A DNA stretch of 24,000 nucleotides from Lysobacteraceae bacterium. Its GTDB lineage: Bacteria > Pseudomonadota > Gammaproteobacteria > Xanthomonadales > Ahniellaceae. The first letter of the stretch is position 1, and every line of letters begins with the position of its first letter. The position numbers and the translations under genes were made by a program. Below are positions 8,397-24,000 of this stretch, in pieces. Location of the stretch: the NCBI GenBank assembly GCA_021299185.1, contig JAJTHZ010000031.1, positions 1 to 24,000 on the forward strand. Reading direction: 5' to 3'. A model generated the notes under the pieces. That model was not told the origin of the DNA and searched no databases. It saw only the letters and a program-made list of their open reading frames with translations.

Positions 8397-8478
8397 GCGA
8401 CCTCGAGCCTGTTGCCTGAGGCTTTCGGGAGCACGCGTCGCCCACAACCGCATCGTGCCAGGAATCCGCGTGCCGCGG

Positions 8479-8603
8479 TCGCCCGCAAGCGGGCTCCTAC
8501 ATGCACTGGCAGCGATCGCGTTCCTGCGTGTGGGAGCCGCTTCAGCGGCGATTTCCCCTGCGACAGCCACCGGCAGGAGCGTCGCCGCTGAAGCGGCTCC
8601 CAC
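8479..8603. repeat. REP-type repeat cluster B (1 variant + 2 canonical units)
   Basis: Variant unit at 8479-8500 (reverse complement GTAGGAGCCCGCTTGCGGGCGA). Canonical forward unit at 8530-8551 and canonical reverse unit at 8582-8603. Unit starts are 51 and 52 bp apart. The cluster sits in the convergent gap between the GH17-GT2 stop (8396) and the tsaB stop (8628). Confidence 0.9.
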
Positions 8604-8627
8604 ACCGGGCCTTCCTCGGGGCGGCCC

Positions 8628-9323
8628 TCAGGTGGGCATCGGCTTGCCCTGTTCGGCCAGCGTGAGCGCGACCTTGTCGCGCAGGTAGACCGGCTGCGCG
8701 TCCAGCGCATCGACACCGAGGCCGGCGGCGAGATCGCGCGCGGCGAGGCGCGCGAGGTCGGCCGCGCGCGGCAGGGCATCGGGCGCCACCTGCGCCAGCG
8801 CGCTGCCGAAGCGCGCGCCCAGCGCGCCGCCGTGCGCGCCGAAGCCGGTGCCGACCCCGGCGAAGCGCGCGGCAGGCGCCGCCACGTCCTGCGGCGCCGA
8901 CACCGACTCGGCGCCGCGCGGCACCACGAGGCCGTCCGCGGCGATGTCGAATGCACCCGCGTAGACCTCGCCCATCCGCGCATCGACCAGCGCCAGCACC
9001 GGCAGGCCGTGGCCGGCGCCGCCCTGCGCCAGCACCGCCAGCGTCGACACCGGCACCACCGGACGGTCGAGGGCCAGCGCCAGGCCCTGTGCGATCGCGA
9101 TCGCGAGCCGGATGCCGGTGAAGGCCCCCGGCCCGCGCCCGACCGCGATCGCATCCAGTTGCCGCTTGCCGACTCCCGCCTCGGCCAGCAGCGCGTCGGC
9201 CATCGGCAGCACGAGTTCGGCGTGGCGGCGCGGCGCGAGCTCGAAGCGCTCGCCGACCGCGCCGTCGACCCACAGGGCAACGGTGCAGGCCTCGGTGGCG
9301 GTTTCGATCGCGAGCAGGCGCAT
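8628..9323 (-). CDS. tsaB: tRNA N6-threonylcarbamoyladenosine (t6A) synthesis protein TsaB (YeaZ)
   Basis: 231 aa. MRLLAIETATEACTVALWVDG...GRGPGAFTGIRLAIAIAQGLALA matches E. coli TsaB closely as I recall it (MRILAIDTATEACSVALW...[23 protein letters not shown]). Confidence 0.93.
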   Translation of the reverse strand: MRLLAIETATEACTVALWVDGAVGERFELAPRRHAELVLPMADALLAEAGVGKRQLDAIAVGRGPGAFTGIRLAIAIAQGLALALDRPVVPVSTLAVLAQGGAGHGLPVLALVDARMGEVYAGAFDIAADGLVVPRGAESVSAPQDVAAPAARFAGVGTGFGAHGGALGARFGSALAQVAPDALPRAADLARLAARDLAAGLGVDALDAQPVYLRDKVALTLAEQGKPMPT

Positions 9324-9350
9324 CGCGCGATTGTCGCACTCCCCGGCCGC

Positions 9351-10673
9351 TCACGCCGCGGCCGGCGTCGGCGGCGGCGCCGGCCGTGGCTGGTACCAGT
9401 CGATGCGGCGGGTCAGCCACAGGCTCGCGGCGACCATCGCCAGCAGGCCCAGGGCGCCGATCAGCAGCGCGAAGTCCTCGCTGCGCACCATCAGGAACAG
9501 GAATCCGTACAGCACCGCCAGCCAGGCGCCCAGCGCGAGTCCGCGCCGCACGCCGCCGAGCGCCGCGCTGCCCCAGGCGCCGAGGATCGCGGTCAGCGCG
9601 CTGCCGGCCACCAGGTAGGCAACACCGAAGCCGAGGTGCTCGGCCAGCGCCAGCAGCAGCACGTAGAACACGGCCAGCGCGAGCCCGACCAGCAGGTACT
9701 GCACCGGGTGCACGCGCAGGCGGCCGGTCAGTTCGGCGAGCAGGAACACGCCGAAGGTCAGGGCCACGAACAGCAGGCCGTATTTGAGGCTGCGCTCGCT
9801 GAGGCGGTACACGCCGAGGGGCTCGTACAGTTCCACGCCGAAGCGCGCCGCTTCCAGTGCGCCCGGCGCCGGCGCTTCGCCGGTCCAGCGCAGCGGCAAG
9901 TCGCGGTTGACCGCGAGCACCGTCCACTGCGCGGAGAAGCCATCCTCACTGACCTCACGCTCGCGGGGCAGGAAGGCACCGGCAAAGCTGGGCGCGGGCC
10001 AGGCGCCGCGGATCGCGACCTCGGTCTCGTCGGCCAGCGGCCAGGCGGACAACTCGCGCGTGCCGGACAGGGCGAACGCGAGTTCGAACCCGATTCGCTC
10101 GCGCGCCAGCAGGTCGGGCGGCAGCTCGACGCCCAGCGCCTCGATGCCGAACGCCGGCGCACCGAGGCTACGCAGCGGCAACTGTCGGCCGTCGATGTGC
10201 AGGCGCGGCACGCTGCGCACGCCGCGCAGGTCGGCCACCGGCAGCACCAGGCGCAGGCGCTCGATGCCGCCGGCCAGCGCGGCGCGCGCGCGGTCTTCGG
10301 GCGCGACCACGAACTCGCCGCGCAGCAGCACGTCCGCCGTGTAGACCGGGACCTCGAAGATCCCGCGCACGCGACGCTCCACGCCGAGCGTGGCGTCGAT
10401 GGTGGTCCGGGTCGGTGCCTGGCCGTGCGCGTCGACCACTTCGACCGGCTCCTTGTCGCGCAGCACCGTGCGCCGCTGGCGCCATTCCAGCACCGGCGGC
10501 GCGAGCACCTGCGCGCGGCCCTGGCTGCGTGCGATCCCTTCCTCGGCCTCGGCCAGCCGGCCGGCACGCTCCTGCACCAGGTCGCCGACCAGGCCGAGCG
10601 GGATGGCAAACAGCAGGCACAGCACGGCGATGCCGAGCAGCTTCAGGGTCGACGACTGGATCAAGGGCGGCAT
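9351..10673 (-). CDS. creD: Inner-membrane protein CreD (cell envelope integrity protein)
   Basis: ORF 9351..10790. I moved the start to ATG 10673 (AGGAG 8 nt upstream), giving MPPLIQSSTLKLLGIAVLCLL. Blocks match E. coli CreD as recalled: PAPSFAGAFLPREREVSEDGFSAQW and LKYGLLFVALTFGVFLLAEL...VHPVQYLLVGLALAVFYVLLLALAEHLGF. Confidence 0.9.
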   Translation of the reverse strand: MPPLIQSSTLKLLGIAVLCLLFAIPLGLVGDLVQERAGRLAEAEEGIARSQGRAQVLAPPVLEWRQRRTVLRDKEPVEVVDAHGQAPTRTTIDATLGVERRVRGIFEVPVYTADVLLRGEFVVAPEDRARAALAGGIERLRLVLPVADLRGVRSVPRLHIDGRQLPLRSLGAPAFGIEALGVELPPDLLARERIGFELAFALSGTRELSAWPLADETEVAIRGAWPAPSFAGAFLPREREVSEDGFSAQWTVLAVNRDLPLRWTGEAPAPGALEAARFGVELYEPLGVYRLSERSLKYGLLFVALTFGVFLLAELTGRLRVHPVQYLLVGLALAVFYVLLLALAEHLGFGVAYLVAGSALTAILGAWGSAALGGVRRGLALGAWLAVLYGFLFLMVRSEDFALLIGALGLLAMVAASLWLTRRIDWYQPRPAPPPTPAAA

Positions 10674-10832
10674 GGGATGGCTCCTGGACGGGAAGTCCAG
10701 AGCCTGGGGCGCCGCGCGGGCGCGGCGCGGGCGCGCTGCGGCCGCGGATCGGGCGGATCGAGGGCAAGGCGAGCGCGTCGTAGACCCCATGCGTCAGGGC
10801 CCGGGAGAAGCCGCGAAAGGGTGGTGTTCCCT

Positions 10833-10900
10833 GTGGGAGCCGCTTCAGCGGCGACAGCGGCGGGGGGAATCGCTGCAGTCGCCGCTGAAGCGGCTCCCAC
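10833..10900. repeat. REP-type repeat cluster C (inverted pair)
   Basis: Canonical 22-mer forward at 10833-10854 and reverse at 10879-10900, with a 24-nt spacer. The pair lies between the helicase stop (11019) and the creD start (10673). Confidence 0.9.
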
Positions 10901-11018
10901 GGAACGCGCTGCGGCGGTTAAGGCTCACGCGTCGTGCAACAACGCCGGCGCCATCACCAGCGTGTCCCCGCGACGATTGCGCTCAAGGCACCTTGCACCA
11001 ATGCGCATCGACGGCTGC

Positions 11019-12937
<1,919 letters not shown>

Positions 12938-12941
<4 letters not shown>

Positions 12942-15900
12942 GGTGCGTCGCCCGGCGGCGCCGCACGCCGGCGCGCGAGGGCGGCCTGCAACGCGGCCTG
13001 CAGCGCATCGGGTCCGGCAGGCTTGCGCACGAAGGCGTCGAAGCCGGCTTCGCGGCACTGCGCCTCGATCCCGGCGCTGGCGTTGGCGGTGACCGCGACC
13101 AGCGGCAGCAGGGCCGCGTCGCCCGGCCGCTTGCGCACCATGCGCGCCAGCCGCAGCCCGTCCACACCGGGCAGGTCGAGGTCGAACAGTGCGGCGTCGA
13201 AGCGATGTTCGCCGAGCAGTCGCAGCGCATCGAGCCCGTTGGCGCCGGCCTGCACGCGGTGCCCGGCCACGCCGAGCAGGCCGACCATCACCTCGCGCAC
13301 GGTGGCATCGTCCTCGACCACCAACAACGCGAGGCTGCCGGCGACGCCTGCACTCGCATCCGCGGGCGTCGCGGCCTCGGCGCCAGTGGCCGCATCGGGC
13401 GCAGCGACCGGCGGCAGCGCGAGGCGCACGCGGAAGGTCGAACCCGCGCCCGGCGCGGTCTCGACCTCGATCCGGCCGCCCATCAGTTCCACCAGACGGC
13501 GGCTGATCGACAGCCCGAGGCCGCTGCTGCCGCGCCGGCGCGGCGCCGCGCCCTGCTCGTAGCGCGAGAACAGCCGGGCGACGGTTTCGCTGCCCATCCC
13601 CGGCCCGGTGTCGCGCACAGCGATCACGAGGCCATCCGCCTGCGCGGGATCCGCCGCGAGGTCGACGTCGACCCGCCCCCGCACGGTGAACTTCAGCGCG
13701 TTCTGGACCAGGTTGAACAGGACCTCCTGCAGTCGCGTGGCGTCGACCGCCACGTGGCGCGGCGCATCGGCGGCGATCCGCGAGGCGAGTTCCAGCCCGC
13801 GCTCGTCGGCCAGCGGGCGCAGCAGGGCGACCACTTCGTCGACCAGCGCCCACAGGTCGGCCGGCGCGGGCTCGAGCACGAAGCGCCCGGCCTCGATCCG
13901 CGACAGGTCGAGCAGGTCGTCGACGAGTTTCATCAGGTGCTCGCCGGAACGGCGCACGGTCTGCGCGTACTCGCGCTGGCGCGGGTCGAGACCGGATCGC
14001 AGCAGCAGTTCGGTCATGCCGAGCAGGCCGGTCATCGGAGTGCGGATCTCGTGGCCGACGTCGGCCAGGAATTCGGTCTTGGCCTGGCTCTGCCGCTCCG
14101 CCGCGAGGCGGCGCTCCTCGGCGAGCGCGAGCGCGTAGCTGCGCTCGACGCGCGCGCGCCAGGCGCGGAATCCGAGCCAGCCGGCGAGCGCGACGGCCAG
14201 CGCGTAGAGCGCGAACGCCCACGGCGTGCGCCAGGGCGGCGCGGCGACCTCGATCTCCAGCGCCTGCGGCGCCGGCGCCCACACGCCGCTCGGGTTGGCG
14301 GCCTGCGCCTCGAGGCGGTAGCGGCCGGGCGGCAGTTGCGATACCTCGCGTTCGCCACGGTTGCCGTTCTCGACCCAGTCCGCGTCGAAGCCCTGCAGGC
14401 GGAAGCGGTAGCGGTTCGCGGCGGGGTCGGCCAGCGACAGCGCGCGCACGCTGATGCGCAGGTCGCGGTCGGTGTGCGACATCCGCACCGGCTGCGCGGG
14501 ATCGAGCGCGATCCGGCTGCCGCCGCGGATCAGCGACACGCCGGACAGCACGACCGACGGCGGCACCTCGTTCTCCCGCACGCCCATCGGATCGAACGCG
14601 ACCACGCCCATCGCGCTGGCCACGAACAGCGTGCCGTCGGCGGCGCGCGCCACCGCACGCTCGCCGAAATCGGTGGCCGGCAGCCCGTCCGCCCGGCCGA
14701 TGCGGCGTACGCTGCGCGTCGCCGGATCGATCCGCCACACGCCGGTCGGCGCGAGCACCCACAGCCGGCCGGCGCGGTCGATCTCGAGTCCACCGCCGCG
14801 CACCGCGGGCAAGCCGTCGGCCGGACCGATGCGGGTGGTCTCGCGCAGGGCGTCGCCATCGCGCTCGAGGCGCAGGAGGCCGTCGGGCGCGTGCAGCCAC
14901 AGCCCGCCTTCGGCGTCGAAGGCGAAGGCTTCGATGCGGCCCGACGGCGCACCGGCCAGCGCCCGCCACGCGTCGGCAGCGCGATCGAAACGCGCAACGC
15001 CGGGCGTGCCGACCACCCACGGCGCGCCGTCGGGGCCGAACGCGAGCTGCTCGACTTCGTGGTGCGTGTCGGCATCCGTCCACGGCACGATGCGCTGCGG
15101 CCCGTCGGCGCCGGGTGCGAATCGTTCCAGCGCGGCACCCGCGACCGACAACCACACACTGCCGTCGCTGTCCTCCAGCAGCAGGTCGGCGAGTCCCGAG
15201 GCGATGCCGCCGCGCTGGCCGCCGCGCCAATTGCGCAACGCGCCGCTGCGCGGATCGAAGCGCGACACGCCGCCGCCATGCGCGAGCCAATAGGTGCCGT
15301 CGCGCGCGCACAGCAGCCCCAGGATCTGCCGCGGTGCGCCGGTGGACGGCCACGGCAGGTCGACGTACACGTCGGCGCCGGTGCGGGTGTCGAAGCGCGA
15401 CAGGCCGCCGTCGGCACCGTTGGACAGCAGGTCGCCGTCGGGGCACAGCGCGACCGCGCTGGCGCGCTCCTCGTCCAGCAGCACGCCCTCGCGCGGCGAA
15501 GGTCGCAGCAGGGTGAAGTTGTCCCAGCGCGGCTTGACGTGGACCAGCCCGCCCTCGCGGGCCGGGAACCACAAGCCGCCCTCGCGATCACGCAGGCCGC
15601 CGACGAAGTAGTTCGACGGCAGCGTGTGCGGTCGTCCGGGCTGGCGGCGGAACACCGCGAATTCGCCCGGATCCTGTTCGAGCACCAGCGCGTTCCGCGT
15701 GGGATACCAGCGGCGTCCGGCGTCGTCCTCGATCACGGCCTCGATCACCGCCTTGTCGGGCAGCTCGACCGGGCGCACGGTGCCGTCGCCGTCGACGCGC
15801 ACCAGGCCGTCGCGCAGGCCGACCCACATCGCGCCGTCGCCGGCATCGTGCAGCGCGGTCACCATCTGGCCGGGCAGGAACTGCCGCGCCGGACCATCCC

Positions 15901-16534
15901 CGGCCGGTGCGGCGTCGAGGTCGAGCACGCTCAGGCCGGCATTGGTGCCGACCCACAGCCGCCCGCCGGCATCGGTCCGCAGGTCGATGATGATGTCGCC
16001 GGCGATCGAAGACGGATCGCCCTCGCGGTGGCGCACCACACCGACCACGCCACGCGCGGGGTCCACGCGGTTGAGCCCGCCGGCGAAGGTGCCGGCCCAC
16101 AGCGCGCCGTCCGGCGCCTGCGCGATCGCCCACACGTCGGTGCCGGACAGTCCGTCACCGCCTTCGCCGCCGCGCCAGCTGCGCACCTTGCCGGTTGCCG
16201 GGTCGAGCAGCGACAGCCCGCCGTCCACGGTCCCGAGCCAGATCCGATCCTCGCGGTCGACGAACACGGTCTGCACGTCGTTGGCCGGCAGCGAGGCCGG
16301 GTCGGACGGATCGCGTCGCCACACGGTGAAATCGACGCCGTCGTAGCGGGCGAGACCTTCGGCACTTGCGATCCAGAGGAAGCCGCGGCGATCCTCCACC
16401 ACCTCGTAGATCCGCGTGGTCGGCAGACCCTCGGCCACCCCGAACGTCTCGAACAGCGGGGTCGGCGGCAGCGCCACGACGTCGGACGCGAAGCACAGCC
16501 CCGCCACCACGCCCCAGCCCCATCCTTTTCGCAT
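12938..16534 (-). CDS. Hybrid sensor histidine kinase/response regulator with a periplasmic two-component-regulator propeller + Y_Y_Y sensor
   Basis: ORF 12938..16687. I moved the start to ATG 16534 (signal-like [21 protein letters not shown]). There are at least 12 propeller repeats of the form G..W.G...GL.R.D (e.g. [16 protein letters not shown]). These are followed by a Y_Y_Y-like segment ([14 protein letters not shown]), a TM helix, the H-box [13 protein letters not shown], HATPase motifs ([25 protein letters not shown]) and a C-terminal receiver (LLVVEDD...[10 protein letters not shown]). The stop overlaps the helicase start. Confidence 0.88.
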
Positions 16535-16608
16535 CGATGATCCCCGCCCTGCCCGTCCCGTGCACCGCTGGTGAGGATAACCGGTCCACCGGCCGCGCAA
16601 GCGCAGGT

Positions 16609-16636
16609 TGCAGGCCTGCACGCACCGCCTGCACGC
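16609..16636. promoter_or_regulatory. Candidate operator: 12-bp perfect palindrome overlapping a tandem 10-bp direct repeat
   Basis: TGCAGGCCTGCA at 16609-16620 is a perfect palindrome. GCCTGCACGC occurs at 16614-16623 and again at 16627-16636. The motif lies in the 125-bp divergent region between the kinase start (16534) and the YceI start (16660). Function is unproven. Confidence 0.2.
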
Positions 16637-16659
16637 CACGCGCGGCACACTCTGGCGCC

Positions 16660-17247
16660 ATGAGCCGTCGCCCTGCCCTCGCCGCATTCGCCACCGGCCT
16701 GCTGCTGCTGGCCACCTGCGTCGCCGCCAGCGCCGCGCCGTCCCGCTGGCGGCTGGACCCGGTGCACTGCCAGGTGCTGTTCTTCGCCGACCACCTCGGC
16801 TTCTCGCGCCAGATGGGCCGCTTCACCGGCGTCTCCGGCCACCTCGAACTGGACCCGGACGACTGGACCACCGGCCGCGTCGAAGCCGAGATCGCGATCG
16901 ACTCGCTGTGGCTGGGCGACGCCGGCTGGGAAAAGAAGATGCGCTCCGACGATTTCTTCGACGCCGGGCGCTTCCCGACCGCGCGCTTCGTGGGCGAGCG
17001 CATCGAGCCGACCGGCGAGGCCACCGCCCGCCTGCACGGCACCCTGACCCTGCGCGGCGTGTCGAAGCCGGTGGTGCTGGACCTGCGCCGCAACCGCATC
17101 GGCCGCAACACCTTCAACCTCAAGCAGACCGCGGGCTTCTCGGCGCGCACCACGCTGAGCCGCAAGGCCTTCGGCATCAGCCGCCTGCCGGCGGCGATCG
17201 CCGACGAGGTCGAGGTCGTGCTCGAGATCGAAGCCATCAAGGAGTAA
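16660..17247 (+). CDS. YceI family periplasmic (polyisoprenoid-binding) protein
   Basis: This is the 3' part of ORF 16366..17247, starting at ATG 16660, with signal peptide [25 protein letters not shown]. YceI-like blocks: [48 protein letters not shown]. Confidence 0.85.
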
Positions 17248-17253
17248 GTCCGC

Positions 17254-17874
17254 ATGGCGCTGCGCAACGACCAATGGGACTGGGGCGGCGCGATGCGCCT
17301 GCTGCACTGGGCGATCGCGCTCGGCGTGATCGGCCTGCTGGCGGTCGGCTGGTGGATGGGCGACCTGCCGAACGGCCCGCGCAAGATCGAGATCTACAAG
17401 CTGCACAAGTCGGTCGGCCTCACCGTGCTGGCGCTGATGACGCTGCGCATCGCGCTGCGCCTCGCCCACCGCCGTCGCCCCACACCGCCGGCGATGCCGG
17501 CCTGGCAGCAGCGCGCGGCGGACGCGAGCCACCTCGCGATGTACCTGCTGCTGCTGGCGATGCCGCTGTCGGGCTGGCTGTACAACTCGGCGTCCAACTT
17601 CCCGCTGAAGTGGTTCGAGCTGTTCCGCGTGCCGGCGCTGTCCGGGCGCGACGAGACCCTCAAGGCGATCAGCGGCGCGGTGCACGAATACGCCGCGATC
17701 GCGCTCGCGGCGCTGGTCTGCCTGCACGTGGCCGCCGCGCTCAAGCACCACTTCGTCGACCGCGACGGCGTGCTGCGCTCGATGCTGCCCTTCGCCAGCG
17801 CACGCCCCGCCGACCCCAGCCCGCGCACGCCGGACCCGCCCGCGCCCGCAACGCCCCAGGAGCCCTCGCCATGA
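17254..17874 (+). CDS. Cytochrome b561 family protein (CybB/YceJ-like)
   Basis: 206 aa, AAGGAG SD 9 nt upstream. Conserved blocks LLHWAIALGV, KLHKSVGLTVLALMTLRIALRL and LHVAAALKHHFVDRDGVLRSMLP parallel E. coli cytochrome b561 (LHAAAALAHHYFWKDNTLLRMMP as recalled). Confidence 0.9.
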   Translation: MALRNDQWDWGGAMRLLHWAIALGVIGLLAVGWWMGDLPNGPRKIEIYKLHKSVGLTVLALMTLRIALRLAHRRRPTPPAMPAWQQRAADASHLAMYLLLLAMPLSGWLYNSASNFPLKWFELFRVPALSGRDETLKAISGAVHEYAAIALAALVCLHVAAALKHHFVDRDGVLRSMLPFASARPADPSPRTPDPPAPATPQEPSP

Positions 17875-18425
17875 TCCGCACCGCCCTCGCCATCGCCCTG
17901 TTCGCCGCTGCCGGCGCGCCCCGCGCCGCCGACTGGTCGATGGTCGCCGACGGCAGTTCGCTGGCGTTCGCCAGCAGCTACGACGGCGAGGCCTTCAATG
18001 GCCGCTTCCAGCGCTTCACGCCGGCGATCACGATCGACCCCGCGAACCCCGCGGCGACCCGCATCGAGGTCTCGATCGACGTCGCCAGCGTGGGCACCGA
18101 CAACGAGGAGCGCGACGGCACCCTGGCCACGCCGGAATTCTTCTGGACCGGCAAGTTCCCCAACGCGACGTTCCGCACCACCGCCTGCAAGGCGGGCGCC
18201 ACCGCCGGTGCGATCGACTGCGAGGCCTCGCTCACGATCCGCGACCGCACGGCGGCGATGCCGTTCAACCTGCGCTTCGAGGCGGCGGGCGATCGCGCGA
18301 CGCTGAAGGCCGCGGCCAAGGTCGATCGCATCGCCTTCGACATCGGCACCGGCGAGTGGGCCGACACCGACCTGATCCCGCAGTTCGTCGACGTGACCGT
18401 GGACCTGGTGCTGGCGCGCAAATAG
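17871..18425 (+). CDS. Second YceI family protein
   Basis: Start ATG 17871 overlaps the b561 stop (ATGA), with AGGAG 8 nt upstream. Signal peptide MIRTALAIALFAAAGAPRAA. YceI-like blocks: FNGRFQRF, PEFFWTGKFPNATF, ASLTIRDRTAAMPF. Confidence 0.85.
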   Translation: MIRTALAIALFAAAGAPRAADWSMVADGSSLAFASSYDGEAFNGRFQRFTPAITIDPANPAATRIEVSIDVASVGTDNEERDGTLATPEFFWTGKFPNATFRTTACKAGATAGAIDCEASLTIRDRTAAMPFNLRFEAAGDRATLKAAAKVDRIAFDIGTGEWADTDLIPQFVDVTVDLVLARK

Positions 18426-18558: not shown

Positions 18559-18795
18559 TCAGCCCCGGGGACCTGCAACGAACGCGCGCACGCCCCAGGC
18601 ATCGAACGGCCAGTCGAGTTCACGCCCGCTGGCCGGCTCGTGCAGCACCGGCACCCGCCAGCCGTAGCGCTCGGCGAGCTCGCCGGTCCAGCCGATCTCC
18701 ACCGCGACGTAGTCCGCCACGCCGGCGCCTTGCAGGGCGGCCTCCGCGAGGTCGCACAGCGAACAGGACTCGCGTCGATAGAGGTGCAGGGCCAT
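18559..18795 (-). CDS. Glutaredoxin-like protein (DUF836/Glutaredoxin_2 type)
   Basis: 78 aa. CSLC (CxxC) near the N-terminus, YGWRVPVL, and a C-terminal LDWPFD motif typical of this family. Confidence 0.75.
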   Translation of the reverse strand: MALHLYRRESCSLCDLAEAALQGAGVADYVAVEIGWTGELAERYGWRVPVLHEPASGRELDWPFDAWGVRAFVAGPRG

Positions 18796-18973
18796 GGACC
18801 GGCCTGTGGGAGCGGCGGGCCGGCAAGCCTACGCAAGCGAGGCACGGCCTGCCAGCCCGGCGCGGCCGGCGGCAGCGCGCCGGACGGCGGCGTTCCGACG
18901 CGCGAGGTGGCGGACTTCCGGCATGCCCTTTGCCTGCCACCGGTCCATCGGGCCCCGCCCGGTGGAGCCTTCG

Positions 18974-20926
18974 ATGTCGTCCGCTGTCGCCCCGCGCCCG
19001 AGTCCGCCGCACGCCGATGCCGCTGCCGCCGTTTCGTCGGCGGCCGTGCAGCAAGCGCTTGCGCGCGGCGACCTCGCCGCCGCGATGGCGGCCGCGGCCG
19101 CGCAGGTCGCCGCATCACCCGACGATGGCGCGGTCTGGAAAGTGCTCGGCGCGCTGCAGTGGGTGCTGGTTTCGCCGGCGGCGGCGCTGCCCGCGCTGGC
19201 CACCGCCGCGCAGCATCTGCCCGACGACGCCGAAGCGCACAGCAACCTCGCCGCGGCGGCCGTCGCGGTCGGCGATGCCGCGGCGGGCGAAGCGGCCGCG
19301 CGGCGCGCGCTCGCGCTCGATCCCGCGCACGCGGTTGCCTGGGACAATCTCGGCGTCGCACTGGCGGCGCTGCACCGGCATGAAGAGGCCGAGACGGCGT
19401 ACCGCGAGGCCCTCGCGCGCGCGCCGCAGCGCGCCGCCACCTGGCACCACCTCGCCCTGCTCCTGCGCGACCTGCAGCGCGGCGACGAGGCCCGCGCCGC
19501 GACCCGTGCCGCGATCGAACGCGACCCGAACCACCCGGAGTACCCGAGCCTGCTCGGCGCGCTGCTGGCCGCCGACGGCGAGCACGCCGAGGCCGAGACC
19601 TGGTGCCGCCGCGCAGTCGAATCCGCGCCCGAGGCGAGCGGCCCGCGCAGCACCCTGCTGCTGCTGCTGCAGCACCACGGCACGCTGTCACCGAAGAAGC
19701 TGTTCGAGGCGCATCGCGAGTTCGGCCTGCGCCTCGAACGCGCGCTCGGCCCGGTCGCGCCGCCGCAGCGCCCGCGCGACCCCGAGCGTCCGCTGCGCCT
19801 GGGCTTCGTGTCCGGCGATTTCCGCCGCCACGCGGCCGCGCACTTCATCGAGCCGGTGTGGCGCGAAATCGACCGCGCCCGCTTCCACCTTCACGCCTAC
19901 TCGGTGGCACCGGCCGCCGACGAGGTGACGTCGCGCCTGCAGGGACTGGTCGACGCATGGACCCCGGCCGCGGGCTGGTCCGACGACGCGCTGGCCGCCG
20001 CGATCCGCGACGACGGGATCGACATCCTGTTCGACCTGTCCGGCCACACCGCGCACCACCGCCTGGCGGTGTTCGCGCGCCGCCCGGCGCCGCTGCAGGT
20101 GAGCTGGATCGGCTATCCCGGCACCACCGGCCTGCGCGCGATGGACTACTACTTCGTCGACCGCGGCTTCGCACCTCCGGGGAAACTCGATGCGCAGTTC
20201 ACCGAGCGCCTGGTGCACCTGCCGACCGTGTCGGTGTTCCGGCCCGATCCCGCGTCGCCGCCGGTCGGCCCCTTGCCCGCCCTCGCACGCGGCCACGCCA
20301 CTTTCGGCAGCTTCAACCGCTCGGCCAAGATCACCGCGGCGACCCTCGATGCCTGGTCCTCGGTGCTCGCCGCGGTGCCGGGCGCGCGGCTGCGGATCGG
20401 CGCGATCGACCCGTCGCAGGGCGACCGCCTGCGCGAGCGCCTCGCCTCGCACGCCATCGACACGGCGCGCGTCGACCTGCTGCCGCGTACCGACCTCGCC
20501 GCCTACCTCGCGGCCCACCACGAGGTCGACCTGCTGCTCGACACCTTCCCCTACACCGGCGGCACCACCACCGCCCACGGCCTGTGGATGGGCGTGCCCA
20601 CGCTGACCTTCGAGGGCGCGACGCTGGCCTCGCGCTCCAGCGCGGCGATCCTGCGCCATGCCGGCCTGCCGCAGTTCATCGCCGCCGACGCCGCAGCACT
20701 GGCGCCGCTGGCGGCGCAATGGATCGAGCGCATCGACACGCTCGCCGCGCTGCGCGCCGGGCTGCGCGAGCAGCTCGCCACCGCCCCGCAGCGCGATGCC
20801 CGTCGCGTGGTCGAAGGCCTGGAGGACGCGCTGCGCGCCATGTGGCGCCGGCACTGCAGCGGCAAGCCGCCAGCGCCGTTCCGCGTCGCGCCGCGCGCGA
20901 TCGAACCCTCGGATGCCGCCGCATGA
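18974..20926 (+). CDS. TPR-repeat protein fused to a GT41 (O-GlcNAc-transferase/SPINDLY-like) glycosyltransferase
   Basis: ORF 18794..20926. I moved the start to ATG 18974 (GGAG 6 nt upstream). The Ala-rich TPR region includes AEAHSNLAAAAVAVGD, AVAWDNLGVALAALHRHEEAETAYREAL and DPNHPEY. It is followed by GT41 blocks LRLGFVSGDFRRHAAAHF, DILFDLSGHTAHHRL, QVSWIGYPGTTG, FGSFNRSAKI and LLLDTFPYTGGTTTAHGLWMGVPTLT. Confidence 0.85.
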   Translation: MSSAVAPRPSPPHADAAAAVSSAAVQQALARGDLAAAMAAAAAQVAASPDDGAVWKVLGALQWVLVSPAAALPALATAAQHLPDDAEAHSNLAAAAVAVGDAAAGEAAARRALALDPAHAVAWDNLGVALAALHRHEEAETAYREALARAPQRAATWHHLALLLRDLQRGDEARAATRAAIERDPNHPEYPSLLGALLAADGEHAEAETWCRRAVESAPEASGPRSTLLLLLQHHGTLSPKKLFEAHREFGLRLERALGPVAPPQRPRDPERPLRLGFVSGDFRRHAAAHFIEPVWREIDRARFHLHAYSVAPAADEVTSRLQGLVDAWTPAAGWSDDALAAAIRDDGIDILFDLSGHTAHHRLAVFARRPAPLQVSWIGYPGTTGLRAMDYYFVDRGFAPPGKLDAQFTERLVHLPTVSVFRPDPASPPVGPLPALARGHATFGSFNRSAKITAATLDAWSSVLAAVPGARLRIGAIDPSQGDRLRERLASHAIDTARVDLLPRTDLAAYLAAHHEVDLLLDTFPYTGGTTTAHGLWMGVPTLTFEGATLASRSSAAILRHAGLPQFIAADAAALAPLAAQWIERIDTLAALRAGLREQLATAPQRDARRVVEGLEDALRAMWRRHCSGKPPAPFRVAPRAIEPSDAAA

Positions 20927-22158
20927 TCCTCGAGACCCATCTCCCGCACGACCCGCCGGCCGAGTGCGCGCCACCGGCCGTGCGCAAGCGCATCCGCGGC
21001 CGCGCCGACCTCGCCGTGCACGGCGCGCCGCCGGCCTTCGCCGAGCCGCTGCACGTCGGCCGGCCCAACATCGGCAACCGCGAGCGCTTCCTCGGACTCG
21101 CCAACGAGCTGCTCGACCGGCGCTGGCTGACCAACAACGGGCCGCTGGTGCAGGAACTCGAGCGCCGCCTCGCCGCCCACCTGGGCGTGCGCCACGTGGT
21201 GGCCATGTGCAACGGCACCGTCGCGCTGGAGATCGCGATCCGCGCGCTCGGCCTGCGCGGCGAGGTGATCCTGCCCTCCTACACCTTCGTCGCCACCGCG
21301 CAGGCGCTGCAATGGCAGGAGATCACGCCGGTGTTCGCCGACATCGACCCCGCCACCCACAACCTCGACCCGGCCGCGGTCGAGCGCATGATCACGCCGC
21401 GCACCACCGGCATCATCGGCGTGCACCTGTGGGGTCGCGCAGCGCCCATCGACGAACTGGCCGAGATCGCGCGCCGCCACCAGCTGGCGCTGATGTTCGA
21501 CGCCGCGCACGCCTTCGGCGCGACCTACCGCGGCCGGCGAGTCGGCGCCTTCGGCCGCGCCGAGGTGTTCTCCTTCCACGCGACCAAGTTCTTCAACACC
21601 TTCGAGGGTGGCGCGGTCACCACCAACGAGGACGACCTCGCGCGCGCCATGCGCTACATGCGCAACTTCGGCTTCGAGGACTTCGACCGCGTGGTCCACC
21701 CCGGCACCAACGGCAAGATGCCGGAAATCTGCGCCGCGATGGGCCTGACCAACCTCGACGTGCTGCCGGCCGTGGTCGAGGCCAACCGCGCCCACCACCA
21801 GCGCTACACCGACGCCCTGTCGGCGATCCCCGGCCTGCGGGTTCTGCCCTACGACGCGGCCGAAGCGAGCAACTTCCAGTACGTCGTGGCCGAACTCGAC
21901 CGCGACTTCCCGGTGCCGCGCGATGCGATCGTCGCCGCCCTGCACGCCGAGGGCATCCTGGCGCGCAAGTACTTCTGGCCCGGCTGCCACAACATGCAGC
22001 CGTTCCGCTCGCTCTACCCGCACGCCGGGCTGCTGCTGCCGCACACCACCGACGTCGCCGCGCGGGTGATCGTCCTTCCCACCGGCCCCACCCTGCCGGT
22101 GGACGCCATCGACACCGTGGCCGACGTGATCCGCGCCCTGCGGGAGGCGGCGCCGTGA
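20923..22158 (+). CDS. DegT/DnrJ/EryC1/StrS (PseC/WecE-like) PLP-dependent sugar aminotransferase
   Basis: Start ATG 20923 overlaps the GT41 stop (ATGA). 411 aa. Motifs: NGPLVQELERRLA, AMCNGTVALEIAIRAL, VILPSYTFVATA, FDAAHAFGA, and SFHATKFFNTFEGGAV (PLP lysine). Confidence 0.88.
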   Translation: MILETHLPHDPPAECAPPAVRKRIRGRADLAVHGAPPAFAEPLHVGRPNIGNRERFLGLANELLDRRWLTNNGPLVQELERRLAAHLGVRHVVAMCNGTVALEIAIRALGLRGEVILPSYTFVATAQALQWQEITPVFADIDPATHNLDPAAVERMITPRTTGIIGVHLWGRAAPIDELAEIARRHQLALMFDAAHAFGATYRGRRVGAFGRAEVFSFHATKFFNTFEGGAVTTNEDDLARAMRYMRNFGFEDFDRVVHPGTNGKMPEICAAMGLTNLDVLPAVVEANRAHHQRYTDALSAIPGLRVLPYDAAEASNFQYVVAELDRDFPVPRDAIVAALHAEGILARKYFWPGCHNMQPFRSLYPHAGLLLPHTTDVAARVIVLPTGPTLPVDAIDTVADVIRALREAAP

Positions 22159-22865
22159 TCGTCGCGTTGATGCAGCCGTACTTCTTCCCCTACCTCGGCT
22201 ACTACGGCCTGCTCGCGGCCGCCGACGTGTTCGTCGCCTACGACAACGTGCAGTTCGAGAAGCACGGCTGGGTGAACCGCAACCGCATCCTGCGCGACGG
22301 CGCCCCCGAGTGGTGGACCGCGCCGGTGGCGTCCGCGCCGCTGGCTTCGACCATCGCCGAGCGCCAGTACCACGACTGGCCGCGGCAGCGCGCGCGGCTG
22401 CTCGACCGGCTGCGCGACCGCTACCGGCACGCCCCGCGGCGCGACGACGCGCTCGACCTCGGCGCGGTGGCGATGGATCCGGCCGCCGAGGGCGTCGCGG
22501 ACGCGAACCTGCACGGGCTGCGCAGCGTCGCCACCACGCTCGGGCTGCGCGCCCGCATCGTGCGCGCCTCCGAGGTGCCGCACGACACCCGCCTGCGCGG
22601 CCAGGAGCGCGTGCTCGCGATCTGCGCCGCGCTCGGCGCCGACACCTACGTGAACGCGATCGGCGGCACCTCGCTGTACGATCACGCGGCCTTCGCCGCG
22701 CGTGGCATCGAACTGCGCTTCCTGCGCGCGCGCCCGGAACACTACGCGCAGGACGGCGGCGGCTTCGTGCCCAACCTGTCGATCCTCGACGCCCTGATGT
22801 TCCTGCCGGTCGACGAAGTCGCCCGCCGCGTCGCGCAGTTCGACCTGGTCACCGGCCACGCATGA
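22155..22865 (+). CDS. WbqC family protein (uncharacterised, polysaccharide/sugar-cluster associated)
   Basis: GTG 22155 overlaps the upstream stop (GTGA), with GGGAGG 7 nt upstream. The N-terminus MIVALMQPYFFPYLGYYGLLAAADVFVAYDNVQFEKHGWVNRNRI is the WbqC signature as I recall it. An alternative start is ATG 22170. Confidence 0.75.
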   Translation: MIVALMQPYFFPYLGYYGLLAAADVFVAYDNVQFEKHGWVNRNRILRDGAPEWWTAPVASAPLASTIAERQYHDWPRQRARLLDRLRDRYRHAPRRDDALDLGAVAMDPAAEGVADANLHGLRSVATTLGLRARIVRASEVPHDTRLRGQERVLAICAALGADTYVNAIGGTSLYDHAAFAARGIELRFLRARPEHYAQDGGGFVPNLSILDALMFLPVDEVARRVAQFDLVTGHA

Positions 22866-23851
22866 CGGCCGTGCGCGCCCTCGGTGGCTACTTCGGCCTG
22901 GAGCCCGGCGCCGGCCGCGGCCTGCCGTGGCGCGGCGACGCGCGCGCCGTGCAGAGCGGCCGCATGGCCCTGCGCCTCGCGCTCGACGCCTGGCCACGCG
23001 CGACCCTGTGGCTGCCGGCCTGGTACTGCCCGCCGGCGCGCGCCGCGCTCGCCGCCAGCGGCTGGCGGCTGCGCGAGTACGCGCTGGCCGAGGACCTCGG
23101 TCCGGACGCCGCGGTGCAGCCGGACGACGGCGACCGCGTCCTGCTGGTGGACTGGTTCGGCCTGTGTGGCGCCACGGTGCGCCGCGCCTGCCGCCACTTC
23201 GGCGCGCAACGCGTGCTGGTCGATGCCGCGATGTCGCTGTGGTTCGAACCCGAGCCCGGCGTGCCCACCGCGACTTCGCCGCGCAAGTTCGTCGGCGTGC
23301 CCGACGGCGGCTGGCTGCGCCATCCGCCGGCGACCGCGGCACCGGCACCGCCGCGCGAGGAACCCAGCATCGCGCGCTGCGCCCACCTGCTGCACCGCGC
23401 GGCGGGCGACGTCGCCGGCGGCCGCGCGCACTTCGCCGCCGCCGAGGCGTCGATCAGCGCGGAATCCGCGCCGACGACGATGTCGGCGCTCACCACCCGG
23501 CTGCTCGCCGGGATCGACTTCGACGCCGTGGCGCGGGCCCGGCGGCGCAACTACCGCCGCCTCGCAGACGGCCTGGTCGCGCTCGGCCACGCCCCGCCGG
23601 ACCTGCCCGACGACGCCGTGCCGCTGTGCCTGCCCCTGCCCGCGCCGGATGCGGGAGTCCTGCACCGCCGGCTCGCCGCGCACGGCATCTACTGCGCGCA
23701 CTATTGGGACGACGCCACGTCGCTGCGCCACGACCCGGTCGGCCGGCGCCTGCGCGATGCGACCGTCTGCCTGCCCTGCGACCAGCGCCTGGACGACGAC
23801 GACGTCGACGCGATGCTGGCGGTGTTCGACGCCACGCGGGCCGCCGCATGA
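22862..23851 (+). CDS. Divergent DegT-like aminotransferase-fold protein (function unknown)
   Basis: ATG 22862 overlaps the WbqC stop (ATGA). 329 aa. It aligns by eye to the upstream aminotransferase: QSGRMALRLAL vs CNGTVALEIAI; LWLPAWYC vs VILPSYTF; VDAAMSLW vs FDAAHAFG; SPRKFVGVPDGG vs SFHATKFFNTFEGG. The lysine is retained. Confidence 0.6.
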   Translation: MTAVRALGGYFGLEPGAGRGLPWRGDARAVQSGRMALRLALDAWPRATLWLPAWYCPPARAALAASGWRLREYALAEDLGPDAAVQPDDGDRVLLVDWFGLCGATVRRACRHFGAQRVLVDAAMSLWFEPEPGVPTATSPRKFVGVPDGGWLRHPPATAAPAPPREEPSIARCAHLLHRAAGDVAGGRAHFAAAEASISAESAPTTMSALTTRLLAGIDFDAVARARRRNYRRLADGLVALGHAPPDLPDDAVPLCLPLPAPDAGVLHRRLAAHGIYCAHYWDDATSLRHDPVGRRLRDATVCLPCDQRLDDDDVDAMLAVFDATRAAA

Positions 23852-24000
23852 ACCTGCGCGGGCGCCAGGTGACGCTGCGCGCGATCGAGCCCGACGACCT
23901 GTCGAGGCTGCAGGCCTGGGCCAACGATCCGCAGGTGCAGCGGCTGCTCGGCGGCTGGCACTTCCCGGTCAGCCGCGCCGACCAGCAGGCCTGGCTCGCC
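23848..24000 (+). CDS. GNAT family N-acetyltransferase (RimL/PseH-like), 5' fragment running off the window
   Basis: ATG 23848 overlaps the upstream stop (ATGA). My own translation is MNLRGRQVTLRAIEPDDLSRLQAWANDPQVQRLLGGWHFPVSRADQQAWLA. This is a typical N-terminus for this GNAT subgroup (L..W.NDP.V). It is absent from the ORF track because no stop codon is reached. Confidence 0.6.
   Translation, partial: MNLRGRQVTLRAIEPDDLSRLQAWANDPQVQRLLGGWHFPVSRADQQAWLA

What the first reader, a model, noticed from the sequence alone, without database searches (positions are those of the whole stretch)
18974..24000. GT41 (OGT-like) protein glycosyltransferase hard-wired to an amino-sugar tailoring operon: candidate dedicated protein O-glycosylation system
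Five consecutive plus-strand genes, continuing past the window edge, are joined by four 4-nt start/stop overlaps. These are ATGA 20923-20926, GTGA 22155-22158, ATGA 22862-22865 and ATGA 23848-23851, which implies tight translational coupling. The first gene is TPR + GT41, with the OGT-type block LLLDTFPYTGGTTTAHGLWMGVPTLT. The others are sugar-tailoring enzymes: a DegT/PseC-type aminotransferase with the SFHATK lysine, WbqC, a second aminotransferase-fold protein, and a PseH/RimL-like GNAT. GT41 enzymes act on proteins rather than lipid carriers. Bacterial GT41 homologues, such as the Xanthomonas campestris one used as a structural model for human OGT, have no settled physiological substrate. 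TPR-glycosyltransferases such as Caulobacter FlmG glycosylate flagellin. Coupling a GT41 to synthesis of an N-acetylated amino-deoxy sugar suggests a protein glycosylation module whose donor is not plain UDP-GlcNAc. No Wzx/Wzy, polyprenyl-phosphate transferase, flagellin or pilin gene is visible here, so both donor and target are unknown.
Basis: partly seen in the sequence, partly recalled or inferred. Interest (0 to 1): 0.8.

Follow-up and report, generated by a model that had tools for sequence, protein, structure and literature searches.

The report
Flagellin-type protein glycosylation operon (GT41)
This is a tightly coupled seven-gene operon that makes a decorated amino-deoxy sugar and encodes a SPINDLY-like enzyme to attach it to a protein, most likely flagellin; the same gene set sits next to flagellin genes in other bacteria, so it is a real but largely familiar kind of system.

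Summary
Five + strand genes (18974-24000) are joined by the four stated 4-nt overlaps. A near-identical contig shows a seven-gene operon: TPR-GT41, DesI-like aminotransferase, WbqC, a Pfam-less PLP-fold protein, GNAT, PhyH dioxygenase and SAM methyltransferase.

The glycosyltransferase is closer to plant SPINDLY (E 1.5e-92) than to XcOGT (4e-46). It keeps SPINDLY's H495, K665, Y744 and T748 equivalents.

The same seven genes follow fliC-fliD-fliT in Burkholderia and Paraburkholderia, at the position of FlmQ, the B. cenocepacia flagellin glycosyltransferase. The closest non-orthologous GT41s lie inside flagellar clusters next to DegT-WbqC (Thiobacillus, Accumulibacter). GT41-DegT fusion proteins also exist. 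A sigma-54-type promoter is conserved upstream.

Best reading: a cytoplasmic flagellin O-glycosylation island that supplies its own modified viosamine donor and sits away from the flagellar locus. The target is inferred, not shown: no flagellin gene is visible, and in Lysobacterales the sugar cassette also occurs beside pilin genes with a different, membrane-bound transferase.

GT41 enzymes are already described in flagellin glycosylation islands. New member of a known kind; interest about 0.35.

The parts
18919..18934 (+). Sigma-54-type (-24/-12) promoter-like element, CGGCATGCCCTTTGCC
   Evidence: It lies 40 nt upstream of the ATG. The block CCGGCA[CT]GC-N3-TTGC is the best-conserved stretch of the intergenic region in the orthologous loci L010 and L098, at the same distance from the start. 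The related Lysobacterales cassette (L016) has a perfect TGGCACGCGGCTTGCA upstream of its DegT gene. Taken alone, the window match is not above chance.
18964..18967 (+). Shine-Dalgarno GGAG, 6 nt before the ATG at 18974
   Evidence: Read directly from the sequence. It is conserved as GGAGCC in L010 and L098.
18974..20926 (+). TPR + GT41 glycosyltransferase of the SPINDLY clade, 650 aa (FlmQ-like)
   Evidence: Pfam Glyco_transf_41 1e-39 plus TPR families. Best PDB matches are SPINDLY 1.5e-92 and TtOGT 1.1e-86, against XcOGT 3.6e-46. H286, K452, Y527 and T531 correspond to SPY H495, K665, Y744 and T748. No predicted transmembrane segment. The catalytic domain is 49-53% identical to the flagellar-locus GT41s of Thiobacillus and Accumulibacter.
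20923..22158 (+). DesI/VioA-like sugar 4-aminotransferase, 411 aa, PLP lysine in SFHATK
   Evidence: DegT_DnrJ_EryC1 6.6e-108. Best PDB match is DesI 2PO3 at 1.8e-114, against perosamine synthase at 3.5e-59. NCBIfam DesI scores 480 bits, below the equivalog cut-off of 650.
22155..22865 (+). WbqC-family protein, 236 aa, biochemical function unknown
   Evidence: PF08889 5.6e-57. AlphaFold model pLDDT 96. The only notable PDB fold match is BshC (4WBD), E 3.5e-3, probability 0.98, TM 0.46. No sequence-level link to any PDB entry.
22862..23851 (+). Pfam-less protein with the sugar-aminotransferase (PLP fold-type I) fold, 329 aa
   Evidence: No Pfam, NCBIfam or PDB sequence hit. AlphaFold pLDDT 92; Foldseek matches TlmJ, WbpE, PseC and DesI with probability 1.0. 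Invariant K142 and D121 align with the PLP lysine and aspartate of the neighbouring DegT, although that hhalign alignment is itself weak (probability 2.4%, E 0.019). The family has more than 3000 clusters at E<=1e-30.
23848..24000 (+). 5' part of a GNAT N-acetyltransferase (187 aa in full); the operon continues past the window with PhyH (262 aa) and a SAM methyltransferase (250 aa)
   Evidence: Acetyltransf_3. Weak PseH similarity, 48.9 bits against a cut-off of 93. The full genes and their 4-nt overlaps are seen on L001 10987-13084. PhyH has HxD...H and the methyltransferase has a motif I.

Best explanation
The locus is a self-contained cytoplasmic protein O-glycosylation operon of the flagellin-glycosylation-island type.

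Shown by the analysis:
- Seven translationally coupled genes encode a soluble TPR-GT41 enzyme of the SPINDLY clade with its diphosphate-binding residues intact, plus six soluble tailoring enzymes.

Inferred pathway:
- dTDP-4-keto-6-deoxy-D-glucose, made by RmlA/RmlB encoded elsewhere, is aminated at C4 by the DesI-like aminotransferase to give dTDP-viosamine.
- The 4-amino group is then extended and decorated by WbqC (possibly an amide-forming ligase), the second PLP-fold enzyme, the GNAT (N-acetylation), the PhyH dioxygenase (hydroxylation) and the methyltransferase.

Inferred transfer step:
- The GT41 binds its protein substrate through the TPR superhelix and transfers this 6-deoxy amino sugar directly from the nucleotide donor to Ser/Thr in the cytoplasm, before export.

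Inferred target:
- The most likely substrate is flagellin. The identical seven-gene set follows fliC-fliD-fliT in Burkholderiaceae, at the position of FlmQ, and the nearest other GT41 relatives sit inside flagellar clusters.

Inferred regulation:
- Expression is probably sigma-54-dependent.
For: - Domain content and conserved catalytic residues.
- Seven-gene structure with six 4-nt overlaps.
- The whole block is conserved in relatives at 74-81% identity. In one of them it sits on the other side of sdaA, so it moves as a unit.
- The same seven genes lie immediately after fliC-fliD-fliT in nine Burkholderia/Paraburkholderia-type loci (three of them lack GNAT, PhyH or MT tblastn hits), with variants in Caballeronia.
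- BCAL0111 (FlmQ) is annotated as a TPR / O-GlcNAc-transferase-like protein and is required for flagellin glycosylation: PMC2753556, PMC3502180, PMC4462625. The B. cenocepacia flagellin glycan is a viosamine derivative, Qui4N(3-OHBut): PMC12355684.
- Thiobacillus has fliE-GT41-DegT-WbqC-...-fliC, and Accumulibacter has fliC...fliK-GT41...DegT-WbqC.
- TPR-GT41-DegT fusion proteins exist.
- The closest non-orthologous sugar cassette (Lysobacterales MAG) abuts rpoN-fleQ and has a perfect sigma-54 promoter. A conserved sigma-54-like element lies upstream of the window operon.
- All seven proteins lack transmembrane segments.
- GT41 plus DegT plus methyltransferases are already described in enterobacterial flagellin glycosylation islands: PMC4875605.
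Against: - No flagellar gene lies in the 24-kb window or within 10 kb of the operon on related contigs. I could not check whether this uncultured organism has flagella at all.
- The sugar cassette most similar to this one, after the rpoN-fleQ-linked one, sits next to type IV pilin genes in Luteimonas, Luteibacter and an uncultured gammaproteobacterium. The sugar itself is therefore not flagellin-specific.
- Sigma-54 promoters also drive pilin genes (from general knowledge).
- The aminotransferase misses the DesI equivalog cut-off, so the stereochemistry and the nucleotide carrier are inferred.
- No GT41 has been shown biochemically to use a dTDP-sugar.
- The roles of WbqC and the 329-aa protein are guesses. 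The BshC match is weak.
Confidence: 0.6

Rival explanations
1. The operon glycosylates type IV pilin, or another surface or secreted protein, rather than flagellin. The GT41 recognises that protein through its TPR domain.
For: The six-gene sugar cassette lies directly downstream of pilA in three Lysobacterales-type genomes, with DegT 63-67% identical to the window's. A cyanobacterial GT41 (Ogt), encoded beside pilA, is needed for pilin glycosylation (PMC9306852). The window's operon is not linked to flagellar genes. Sigma-54 promoters are also typical of pilA (general knowledge).
Against: In the pilin-linked loci the GT41 is absent. It is replaced by a 638-aa protein with about 11 predicted membrane segments, alongside GT2, Wzx-type and epimerase genes. 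That arrangement points to a periplasmic, lipid-carrier route. Every GT41-containing version found outside the window's own lineage is in or next to flagellar genes, or has no pilin gene nearby.
Confidence: 0.15
2. The GT41 is a general intracellular O-glycosyltransferase, like eukaryotic OGT or SPINDLY, that modifies many cytoplasmic regulatory proteins with the operon's sugar.
For: The best structural relative is SPINDLY, a nucleocytoplasmic regulator (PMC9715652). The operon sits among housekeeping genes.
Against: Investing six dedicated genes in an elaborate sugar is typical of surface-structure glycans. The homologous modules are embedded in flagellar loci. No hydrolase that would make the modification reversible lies in the operon.
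Confidence: 0.08
3. The genes make a sugar for LPS O-antigen or an exopolysaccharide, and the GT41-like protein acts on a glycan or lipid acceptor.
For: WbqC was named from O-antigen clusters. Homologues of the 329-aa protein, with DegT, occur in Bacteroidota, Firmicutes and Akkermansia loci that lack flagellar genes. A GH17-GT2 glucan synthase gene lies 10 kb upstream.
Against: There is no Wzx, Wzy, polyprenyl-phosphate transferase, ABC exporter or second glycosyltransferase in the operon or its flanks. All characterised GT41 enzymes act on proteins (PMC9715652, PMC4875605). The enzyme has a TPR substrate-binding domain and is soluble.
Confidence: 0.07
4. The operon is a pseudaminic or legionaminic-acid-type pathway, as the PseC and PseH labels would suggest.
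For: Weak similarity to PseC (210 bits) and PseH (48.9 bits).
Against: Both scores are far below the equivalog cut-offs of 423 and 93. DesI is a much better match. There is no PseB, PseG, PseI/NeuB or CMP-transferase gene in the seven-gene operon.
Confidence: 0.03

Closest known systems
FlmQ (BCAL0111) flagellin glycosylation system of Burkholderia cenocepacia
   Same: Both use a TPR plus O-GlcNAc-transferase-like (GT41/SPINDLY family) enzyme required for flagellin O-glycosylation with a viosamine derivative (PMC4462625, PMC3502180, PMC2753556, PMC12355684). In other Burkholderia and Paraburkholderia genomes the GT41 at this position is followed by the same six tailoring genes as here.
   Different: The window's GT41 is only 38-43% identical to the Burkholderia proteins. 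The operon is not next to fliC. In K56-2 the sugar genes are reported to lie elsewhere (from memory of Hanuszkiewicz 2014; that paper was not held in the library). The sugar made by the WbqC / PLP-fold / PhyH set has not been characterised.
Enterobacterial flagellin glycosylation islands with GT41 enzymes (De Maayer & Cowan 2016, PMC4875605)
   Same: SPINDLY-family (COG3914) GT41 glycosyltransferases are clustered with DegT aminotransferases, methyltransferases and acetyltransferases.
   Different: Those islands lie between flagellar genes, and most of their GT41s carry a fused methyltransferase domain. They are known from bioinformatics only, with no glycan structure.
Pseudomonas syringae viosamine island (vioA, vioB, vioM, vioR, vioS, acp, vioT; PMC3927599)
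   Same: It is a sugar-plus-transferase island located away from the flagellar cluster. It makes dTDP-N-acyl-2-O-methyl-viosamine for flagellin, using an aminotransferase, N-acylation enzymes, a methyltransferase and a dedicated transferase.
   Different: Its acyl chain comes from FabH/FabG/ACP-type enzymes rather than WbqC, a PLP-fold protein, a GNAT and PhyH. Its transferase adds the sugar to a rhamnose chain, not directly to the protein. Whether VioT is a GT41 was not tested here.
Plant SPINDLY (protein O-fucosyltransferase, PDB 7Y4I/8DTF)
   Same: It is the best solved-structure match (E 1.5e-92, one continuous alignment over residues 115-637). The Tyr744 equivalent, which restricts the pocket to a small 6-deoxy sugar, is conserved, as are H495, K665 and T748.
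   Different: SPINDLY uses GDP-L-fucose and has many nuclear and cytosolic targets. Here the linked pathway predicts a dTDP-linked 4-amino-4,6-dideoxyhexose. S496 is Ala here.
Caulobacter FlmG
   Same: It has a modular TPR (flagellin-binding) plus glycosyltransferase architecture and glycosylates flagellin in the cytoplasm (PMC7591256).
   Different: FlmG transfers pseudaminic acid. Homology of its catalytic domain to GT41 was not tested here.
Xanthomonas campestris XcOGT (PDB 2JLB/2VSN)
   Same: It is a bacterial TPR plus GT41 protein.
   Different: It is a much more distant relative (E 3.6e-46 against 1.5e-92 for SPINDLY). Its physiological role is unknown and no linked sugar pathway is documented.

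Membership tests
CAZy GT41 / Pfam PF13844 | Sequence match to the Glyco_transf_41 model above the curated threshold | tested here: met
   136.7 bits against a cut-off of 25, in two stretches.
CAZy GT41 / Pfam PF13844 | N-terminal TPR superhelix preceding the catalytic lobes | tested here: met
   TPR_1, TPR_2, TPR_16 and related hits over residues ~69-230. The alignment to the SPINDLY TPRs runs on continuously into the catalytic domain.
CAZy GT41 / Pfam PF13844 | Conserved active-site and diphosphate-binding residues (SPY H495, K665, T748; Y744 sugar gate) | tested here: met
   The equivalents are H286, K452, T531 and Y527. S496 is Ala287.
CAZy GT41 / Pfam PF13844 | Transfers a sugar from a nucleotide donor to a protein side chain | not testable with these tools
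   This needs an enzyme assay or glycoproteomics.
SPINDLY clade (as opposed to the OGT/SEC clade) | Closer in sequence to SPY than to OGT, and aligned without an intervening domain | tested here: met
   SPY scores 314 bits in one stretch over residues 115-637. Human OGT scores 205 bits in 2-4 stretches.
SPINDLY clade (as opposed to the OGT/SEC clade) | GDP-L-fucose as donor | not testable with these tools
   The context (a DesI-like aminotransferase) argues for a different 6-deoxy sugar donor.
Flagellin glycosylation island (FlmQ type) | Glycosyltransferase clustered with genes for synthesis of the sugar | tested here: met
   A seven-gene operon with 4-nt overlaps.
Flagellin glycosylation island (FlmQ type) | Located within or next to the flagellin/flagellar gene cluster | tested here: not met
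   No flagellar gene lies in the window or within 10 kb on L001, L010, L015 or L098. Homologous modules in Burkholderiaceae, Thiobacillus and Accumulibacter are so located. There is precedent for detached islands (PMC3927599; Caballeronia udeis).
Flagellin glycosylation island (FlmQ type) | Flagellin carries a glycan that depends on these genes | not testable with these tools
   This needs MS of flagellin from wild type and mutants.
dTDP-viosamine pathway (DesI/VioA-type 4-aminotransferase) | DegT-family PLP enzyme with the catalytic lysine | tested here: met
   PF01041 6.6e-108, with the SFHATK motif.
dTDP-viosamine pathway (DesI/VioA-type 4-aminotransferase) | Reaches the NCBIfam DesI equivalog score | tested here: not met
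   480 bits against a cut-off of 650. DesI is nevertheless by far the best PDB match, at 1.8e-114.
dTDP-viosamine pathway (DesI/VioA-type 4-aminotransferase) | RmlA/RmlB available to supply dTDP-4-keto-6-deoxyglucose | not testable with these tools
   These genes are not in the locus, and the rest of the genome could not be read.
Wzx/Wzy O-antigen cluster | Flippase, polymerase and initiating phosphoglycosyltransferase in the cluster | tested here: not met
   None occurs in the window or downstream of the operon.
Pseudaminic acid pathway (PseB, C, H, G, I, F) | PseC and PseH equivalogs plus PseI synthase | tested here: not met
   PseC scores 210 against 423 and PseH 48.9 against 93. There is no synthase or CMP-transferase gene.

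The most novel reading that the evidence does not exclude
WbqC and the Pfam-less PLP-fold protein may form a two-enzyme unit found across phyla that builds a so far undescribed N-4 substituent on viosamine. Supporting hints are the BshC-like fold of WbqC and a fusion of the PLP-fold protein to an ATP-grasp ligase in one relative. The SPINDLY-clade GT41 would then transfer this dTDP-linked 6-deoxy amino sugar directly to protein Ser/Thr. That would be the first GT41 shown to use a dTDP-sugar. It would also make 6-deoxyhexose transfer onto flagellin the bacterial root of the clade that gave plants their O-fucosyltransferase SPINDLY. A further possibility is that, in this lineage, the island has been freed from the flagellar locus to serve a different protein target.
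Probability: 0.25. Interest if true: 0.6.

Novelty: new member of a known kind. Interest (0 to 1): 0.35.

Why it matters
Flagellin glycans affect motility, filament stability and immune recognition. The enzymes that attach non-nonulosonic sugars directly to flagellin are poorly understood.

This operon is a compact, fully coupled example of a GT41-plus-viosamine module that recurs in Burkholderia, Paraburkholderia, Thiobacillus and Accumulibacter. It ties the bacterial relatives of plant SPINDLY to a concrete substrate class.

It also highlights two large uncharacterised enzyme families:
- WbqC, with more than 4000 homologues.
- A PLP-fold family with no match in the Pfam-A copy searched and more than 3000 clusters.

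Working out their chemistry would explain a widespread sugar decoration. The system itself is not a new kind, because GT41 enzymes in flagellin glycosylation islands are already described.

Tried and rejected
- The Pse/Leg nonulosonic pathway was rejected on scores and on missing genes.
- The O-antigen cluster reading was rejected because no Wzx, Wzy or initiating transferase is present.
- GDP-perosamine was considered because SPINDLY uses a GDP-sugar. It is less likely because DesI scores 386 bits against 204 for perosamine synthase.
- The sigma-54 motif is not above chance in the window on its own (30 matches against 44 expected at up to 3 mismatches). It was kept only because it is conserved in position and sequence in orthologous loci, and is perfect in L016.
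- No sigma-70-like promoter or terminator was found around the operon start.
- A literature search for WbqC found no functional study.
- A profile search of WbqC against PDB sequences found nothing, so the BshC fold match stands alone.
- The key FlmQ paper (Hanuszkiewicz 2014, PMC4081957) is not held. FlmQ's family assignment therefore rests on annotations quoted in other papers and on the positional equivalent in L013.
- One search failed because of a wrong frame for the upstream helicase gene; this had no consequence.

Full report
**Observation.** The window is 67-77% G+C. Frame-specific third-position GC was therefore used to pick real genes. On the + strand, 18974-20926, 20923-22158, 22155-22865, 22862-23851 and 23848 onward are open.

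A look-up of the 329-aa product found 13 contigs carrying it. The longest (L001, 29.9 kb, JGI metagenome 3300034010) is essentially identical to the window and runs past its edge. The operon there has seven genes, every junction a 4-nt overlap:
- TPR-GT41 (650 aa)
- DegT aminotransferase (411 aa)
- WbqC (236 aa)
- the 329-aa protein
- GNAT (187 aa)
- PhyH-type Fe(II)/2-oxoglutarate dioxygenase (262 aa)
- SAM methyltransferase (250 aa)

A 100-nt gap follows, then L-serine dehydratase, then Mu-like prophage genes. The operon holds no dehydratase, nucleotidyltransferase, NeuB/PseI, Wzx, Wzy or phosphoglycosyltransferase gene. Upstream, on the opposite strand, is a glutaredoxin-like gene (18559-18795). 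Beyond it lie YceI-cytochrome b561-YceI and a hybrid sensor kinase. The closest genome is a MAG labelled only 'Pseudomonadota bacterium CTOTU1219' (97% identity).

**The glycosyltransferase.** Pfam gives Glyco_transf_41 at 136.7 bits plus many TPR families. Against solved structures:

| Match | E-value |
|---|---|
| Arabidopsis SPINDLY (single alignment, residues 115-637) | 1.5e-92 |
| Thermobaculum TtOGT | 1.1e-86 |
| Human OGT | 1.7e-59 |
| Xanthomonas XcOGT | 3.6e-46 |

The protein is therefore a SPINDLY-clade enzyme, not an XcOGT-like one.

The SPINDLY structure paper identifies H495, K665 and T748 as active-site and GDP-binding residues. It identifies Y744 as the residue that narrows the sugar pocket so that fucose fits and GlcNAc does not (PMC9715652). 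The window protein has H286, K452, T531 and Y527 at those positions; S496 is Ala. It has no predicted membrane segment, so it should act in the cytoplasm.

**The sugar genes.**
- *Aminotransferase.* Its best PDB match is DesI (2PO3, E 1.8e-114), well ahead of perosamine synthase (3.5e-59) and PseC-type enzymes. The best NCBIfam model is DesI (dTDP-4-dehydro-6-deoxyglucose aminotransferase) at 480 bits, below the equivalog cut-off of 650. The likeliest product is therefore dTDP-4-amino-4,6-dideoxy-D-glucose (viosamine), but this is inference.
- *The 329-aa protein.* It has no Pfam, NCBIfam or PDB sequence match. A model built from 39 homologues has pLDDT 92 and matches sugar aminotransferases (TlmJ, WbpE, PseC, DesI) with Foldseek probability 1.0. 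A profile alignment to the neighbouring DegT is weak in itself (hhalign probability 2.4%, E 0.019). It places the family-invariant K142 on the Schiff-base lysine and D121 on the PLP-binding aspartate. On that alignment it is probably an active PLP enzyme. The family is large, with 3131 clusters at E<=1e-30. One member is fused to an ATP-grasp ligase domain.
- *WbqC.* The model is confident (pLDDT 96). Its only notable PDB fold match is BshC, the cysteine-adding enzyme of bacillithiol synthesis, which acylates the amine of a glucosamine derivative (E 3.5e-3, probability 0.98, TM 0.46). No sequence-level link exists. I treat 'amide-forming ligase on the 4-amino group' as a lead only.
- *GNAT.* It resembles PseH weakly (48.9 bits against a cut-off of 93).
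- *PhyH and methyltransferase.* PhyH has an HxD...H triad and the methyltransferase has a motif I.

**Comparative context, which decides the interpretation.**

*GT41 side.* Orthologues at 74-97% identity occur only in metagenomes. After them comes a gap to about 46%.
- Relatives at 74, 75 and 81% identity keep all seven genes. In the 81% relative, sdaA lies upstream rather than downstream of the block, so the block moves as a unit.
- Two hits are fusion proteins, TPR-GT41-DegT. One is followed by an FkbM-type methyltransferase. The other is followed by a hexapeptide acyltransferase and a BKACE enzyme.
- P0050 of Thiobacillus denitrificans (catalytic domain 53% identical) lies in fliE-GT41-DegT-WbqC-...-GNAT-MT-MT-...-fliC-flaG-fliD-fliS-fliT.
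- In Accumulibacter the order is fliC-flaG-fliD-fliS-fliT-fliK-GT41-...-DegT-WbqC-MT-ATP-grasp-...-MT-PilZ.

*Cassette side.* The 329-aa family was scanned against one genome per species and the loci were surveyed by tblastn.
- Nine Burkholderia, Paraburkholderia or related loci have fliC-fliD-fliT-[TPR-GT41]-DegT-WbqC-X, followed by GNAT-PhyH-MT in full in six of them (L024, L025 and L042 lack one or more of those three tblastn hits). Here X is the homologue of the window's 329-aa protein.
- Caballeronia cordobensis has the same genes with the GT41 inverted.
- Caballeronia udeis has the module away from the flagellar locus, next to a phage-type integrase.
- Several Pseudomonas loci have DegT...WbqC-X beside fliD.
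- A Lysobacterales MAG has the six-gene cassette directly upstream of rpoN, a response regulator and fleQ. Its proteins are the most similar outside the window's own lineage (DegT 79% identical).
- Three Lysobacterales-type genomes (Luteimonas, Luteibacter and an uncultured gammaproteobacterium) have pilin, a 638-aa protein, then the cassette (Luteibacter L018 shows only its DegT-WbqC-X part). There is no GT41. The 638-aa protein has about 11 predicted membrane segments and an early FDD motif. In Luteimonas it sits among GT2, Wzx-type and epimerase genes and pilBCD.
- In Bacteroidota, Firmicutes and Akkermansia, the 329-aa homologue occurs with DegT and/or WbqC in other loci.

**Link to experiment.** BCAL0111 (flmQ) of B. 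cenocepacia lies three genes from fliC (BCAL0114). It is annotated as a TPR / O-linked GlcNAc transferase protein (PMC2753556, PMC3502180). Its deletion gives unglycosylated flagellin and reduced motility (PMC4462625). The glycan there is Qui4N(3-OHBut), a viosamine derivative (PMC12355684). De Maayer and Cowan found SPINDLY-family GT41 enzymes, DegT aminotransferases and methyltransferases in enterobacterial flagellin glycosylation islands (PMC4875605). P. syringae keeps its modified-viosamine genes, including a dedicated transferase, in a 'viosamine island' away from the flagellar cluster (PMC3927599). That is a precedent for a detached island.

**Regulation.** No sigma-70-like promoter was found upstream. 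A -24/-12 element, CGGCATGCCCTTTGCC (18919-18934), lies 40 nt before the ATG. Alone it is not above chance. However, CCGGCA[CT]GC-N3-TTGC is the most conserved block of the otherwise diverged intergenic region in two orthologous loci, and it sits at the same distance from the start. The rpoN-fleQ-linked Lysobacterales cassette has a perfect TGGCACGCGGCTTGCA. Sigma-54 control fits a flagellar regulon in this kind of bacterium, but it would also fit pilin genes.

**Mechanism proposed.**
- Shown: the gene content, the coupling between genes, the conserved catalytic residues, the predicted solubility and the comparative linkage.
- Inferred: RmlA/RmlB encoded elsewhere supply dTDP-4-keto-6-deoxyglucose. 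The DesI-like enzyme makes dTDP-viosamine. WbqC, the second PLP enzyme, the GNAT, PhyH and the methyltransferase elaborate the 4-N substituent and the ring. The TPR-GT41 then transfers the finished sugar to Ser/Thr of flagellin in the cytoplasm before export through the flagellar secretion apparatus.
- The use of a soluble GT41 here, against a polytopic membrane protein in the pilin-linked versions, is the main mechanistic reason to prefer flagellin over pilin.
- I put 0.6 on flagellin as the target, and about 0.85 on 'dedicated protein O-glycosylation module' in general.

**Novelty and score.** The kind of system is known: GT41/FlmQ-type flagellin glycosylation with viosamine-derived sugars, including islands detached from the flagellar locus. 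This locus is a clean, fully coupled new member from an uncultured lineage. What remains unknown is the chemistry of WbqC and the Pfam-less PLP family, and whether a GT41 really uses a dTDP-sugar. Interest is 0.35.

Noticed in passing
window 5742-8396 (+): An 884-aa protein combines a GH17 glycoside hydrolase region with a GT2/cellulose-synthase-like domain. This is the architecture of NdvB-type beta-1,3-glucan synthases.
   Followed up: no
window 681-4577 (+): A 1298-aa protein with a Calx-beta domain and a C-terminal endonuclease/exonuclease/phosphatase domain. It is followed by a VTT/DedA-like membrane protein at 4652-5479.
   Followed up: no
window 16366-18425 (+) and 18559-18795 (-): A YceI - cytochrome b561 - YceI trio, and a divergently transcribed 78-aa glutaredoxin-like gene whose start abuts the operon's promoter region.
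   Followed up: no
L001 15279-16894: Mu-like prophage genes (HTH_Tnp_Mu_2, Mu-like_Pro_N) follow sdaA in this organism. The 75% relative L010 has prfC there instead, which suggests a prophage insertion just downstream of the operon.
   Followed up: no
L007 2444-5821; L008 9578-12889: Single polypeptides fuse TPR-GT41 to a DegT aminotransferase (1125 and 1103 aa). Their downstream tailoring genes differ: Methyltransf_21 in one, hexapeptide acyltransferase plus BKACE in the other.
   Followed up: partly
P0293 (762 aa): A homologue of the 329-aa PLP-fold protein is fused to an ATP-grasp (ATPgrasp_Ter/PylC-like) ligase domain. An ATP-grasp gene also sits in the Accumulibacter flagellar DegT-WbqC cluster.
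   Followed up: partly
L012 5110-13065; L017; L018: In Lysobacterales-type genomes the same sugar cassette (only its DegT-WbqC-X part in L018) follows pilA and a 638-aa polytopic membrane protein that has no Pfam family above threshold. This may be a GT-C-type pilin glycosyltransferase.
   Followed up: partly
Contig of P0004 (no DNA held), genes 6605-15149: In an 81% relative the serine dehydratase gene lies upstream of the seven-gene block instead of downstream. The block has therefore been repositioned as a unit.
   Followed up: no
L097 5225-7159; L095 12788-14718: Paired ~320-aa proteins with faint five-bladed-propeller glycoside hydrolase/phosphorylase similarity (GH32N/GH43/GH130) replace the PLP-fold, GNAT and PhyH genes in the Thiobacillus and Accumulibacter flagellar modules.
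   Followed up: no
L008 14569-18428 (-): A C39-peptidase ABC transporter and an HlyD-type adaptor (a type I secretion or bacteriocin export set) lie next to one GT41-DegT fusion locus.
   Followed up: no
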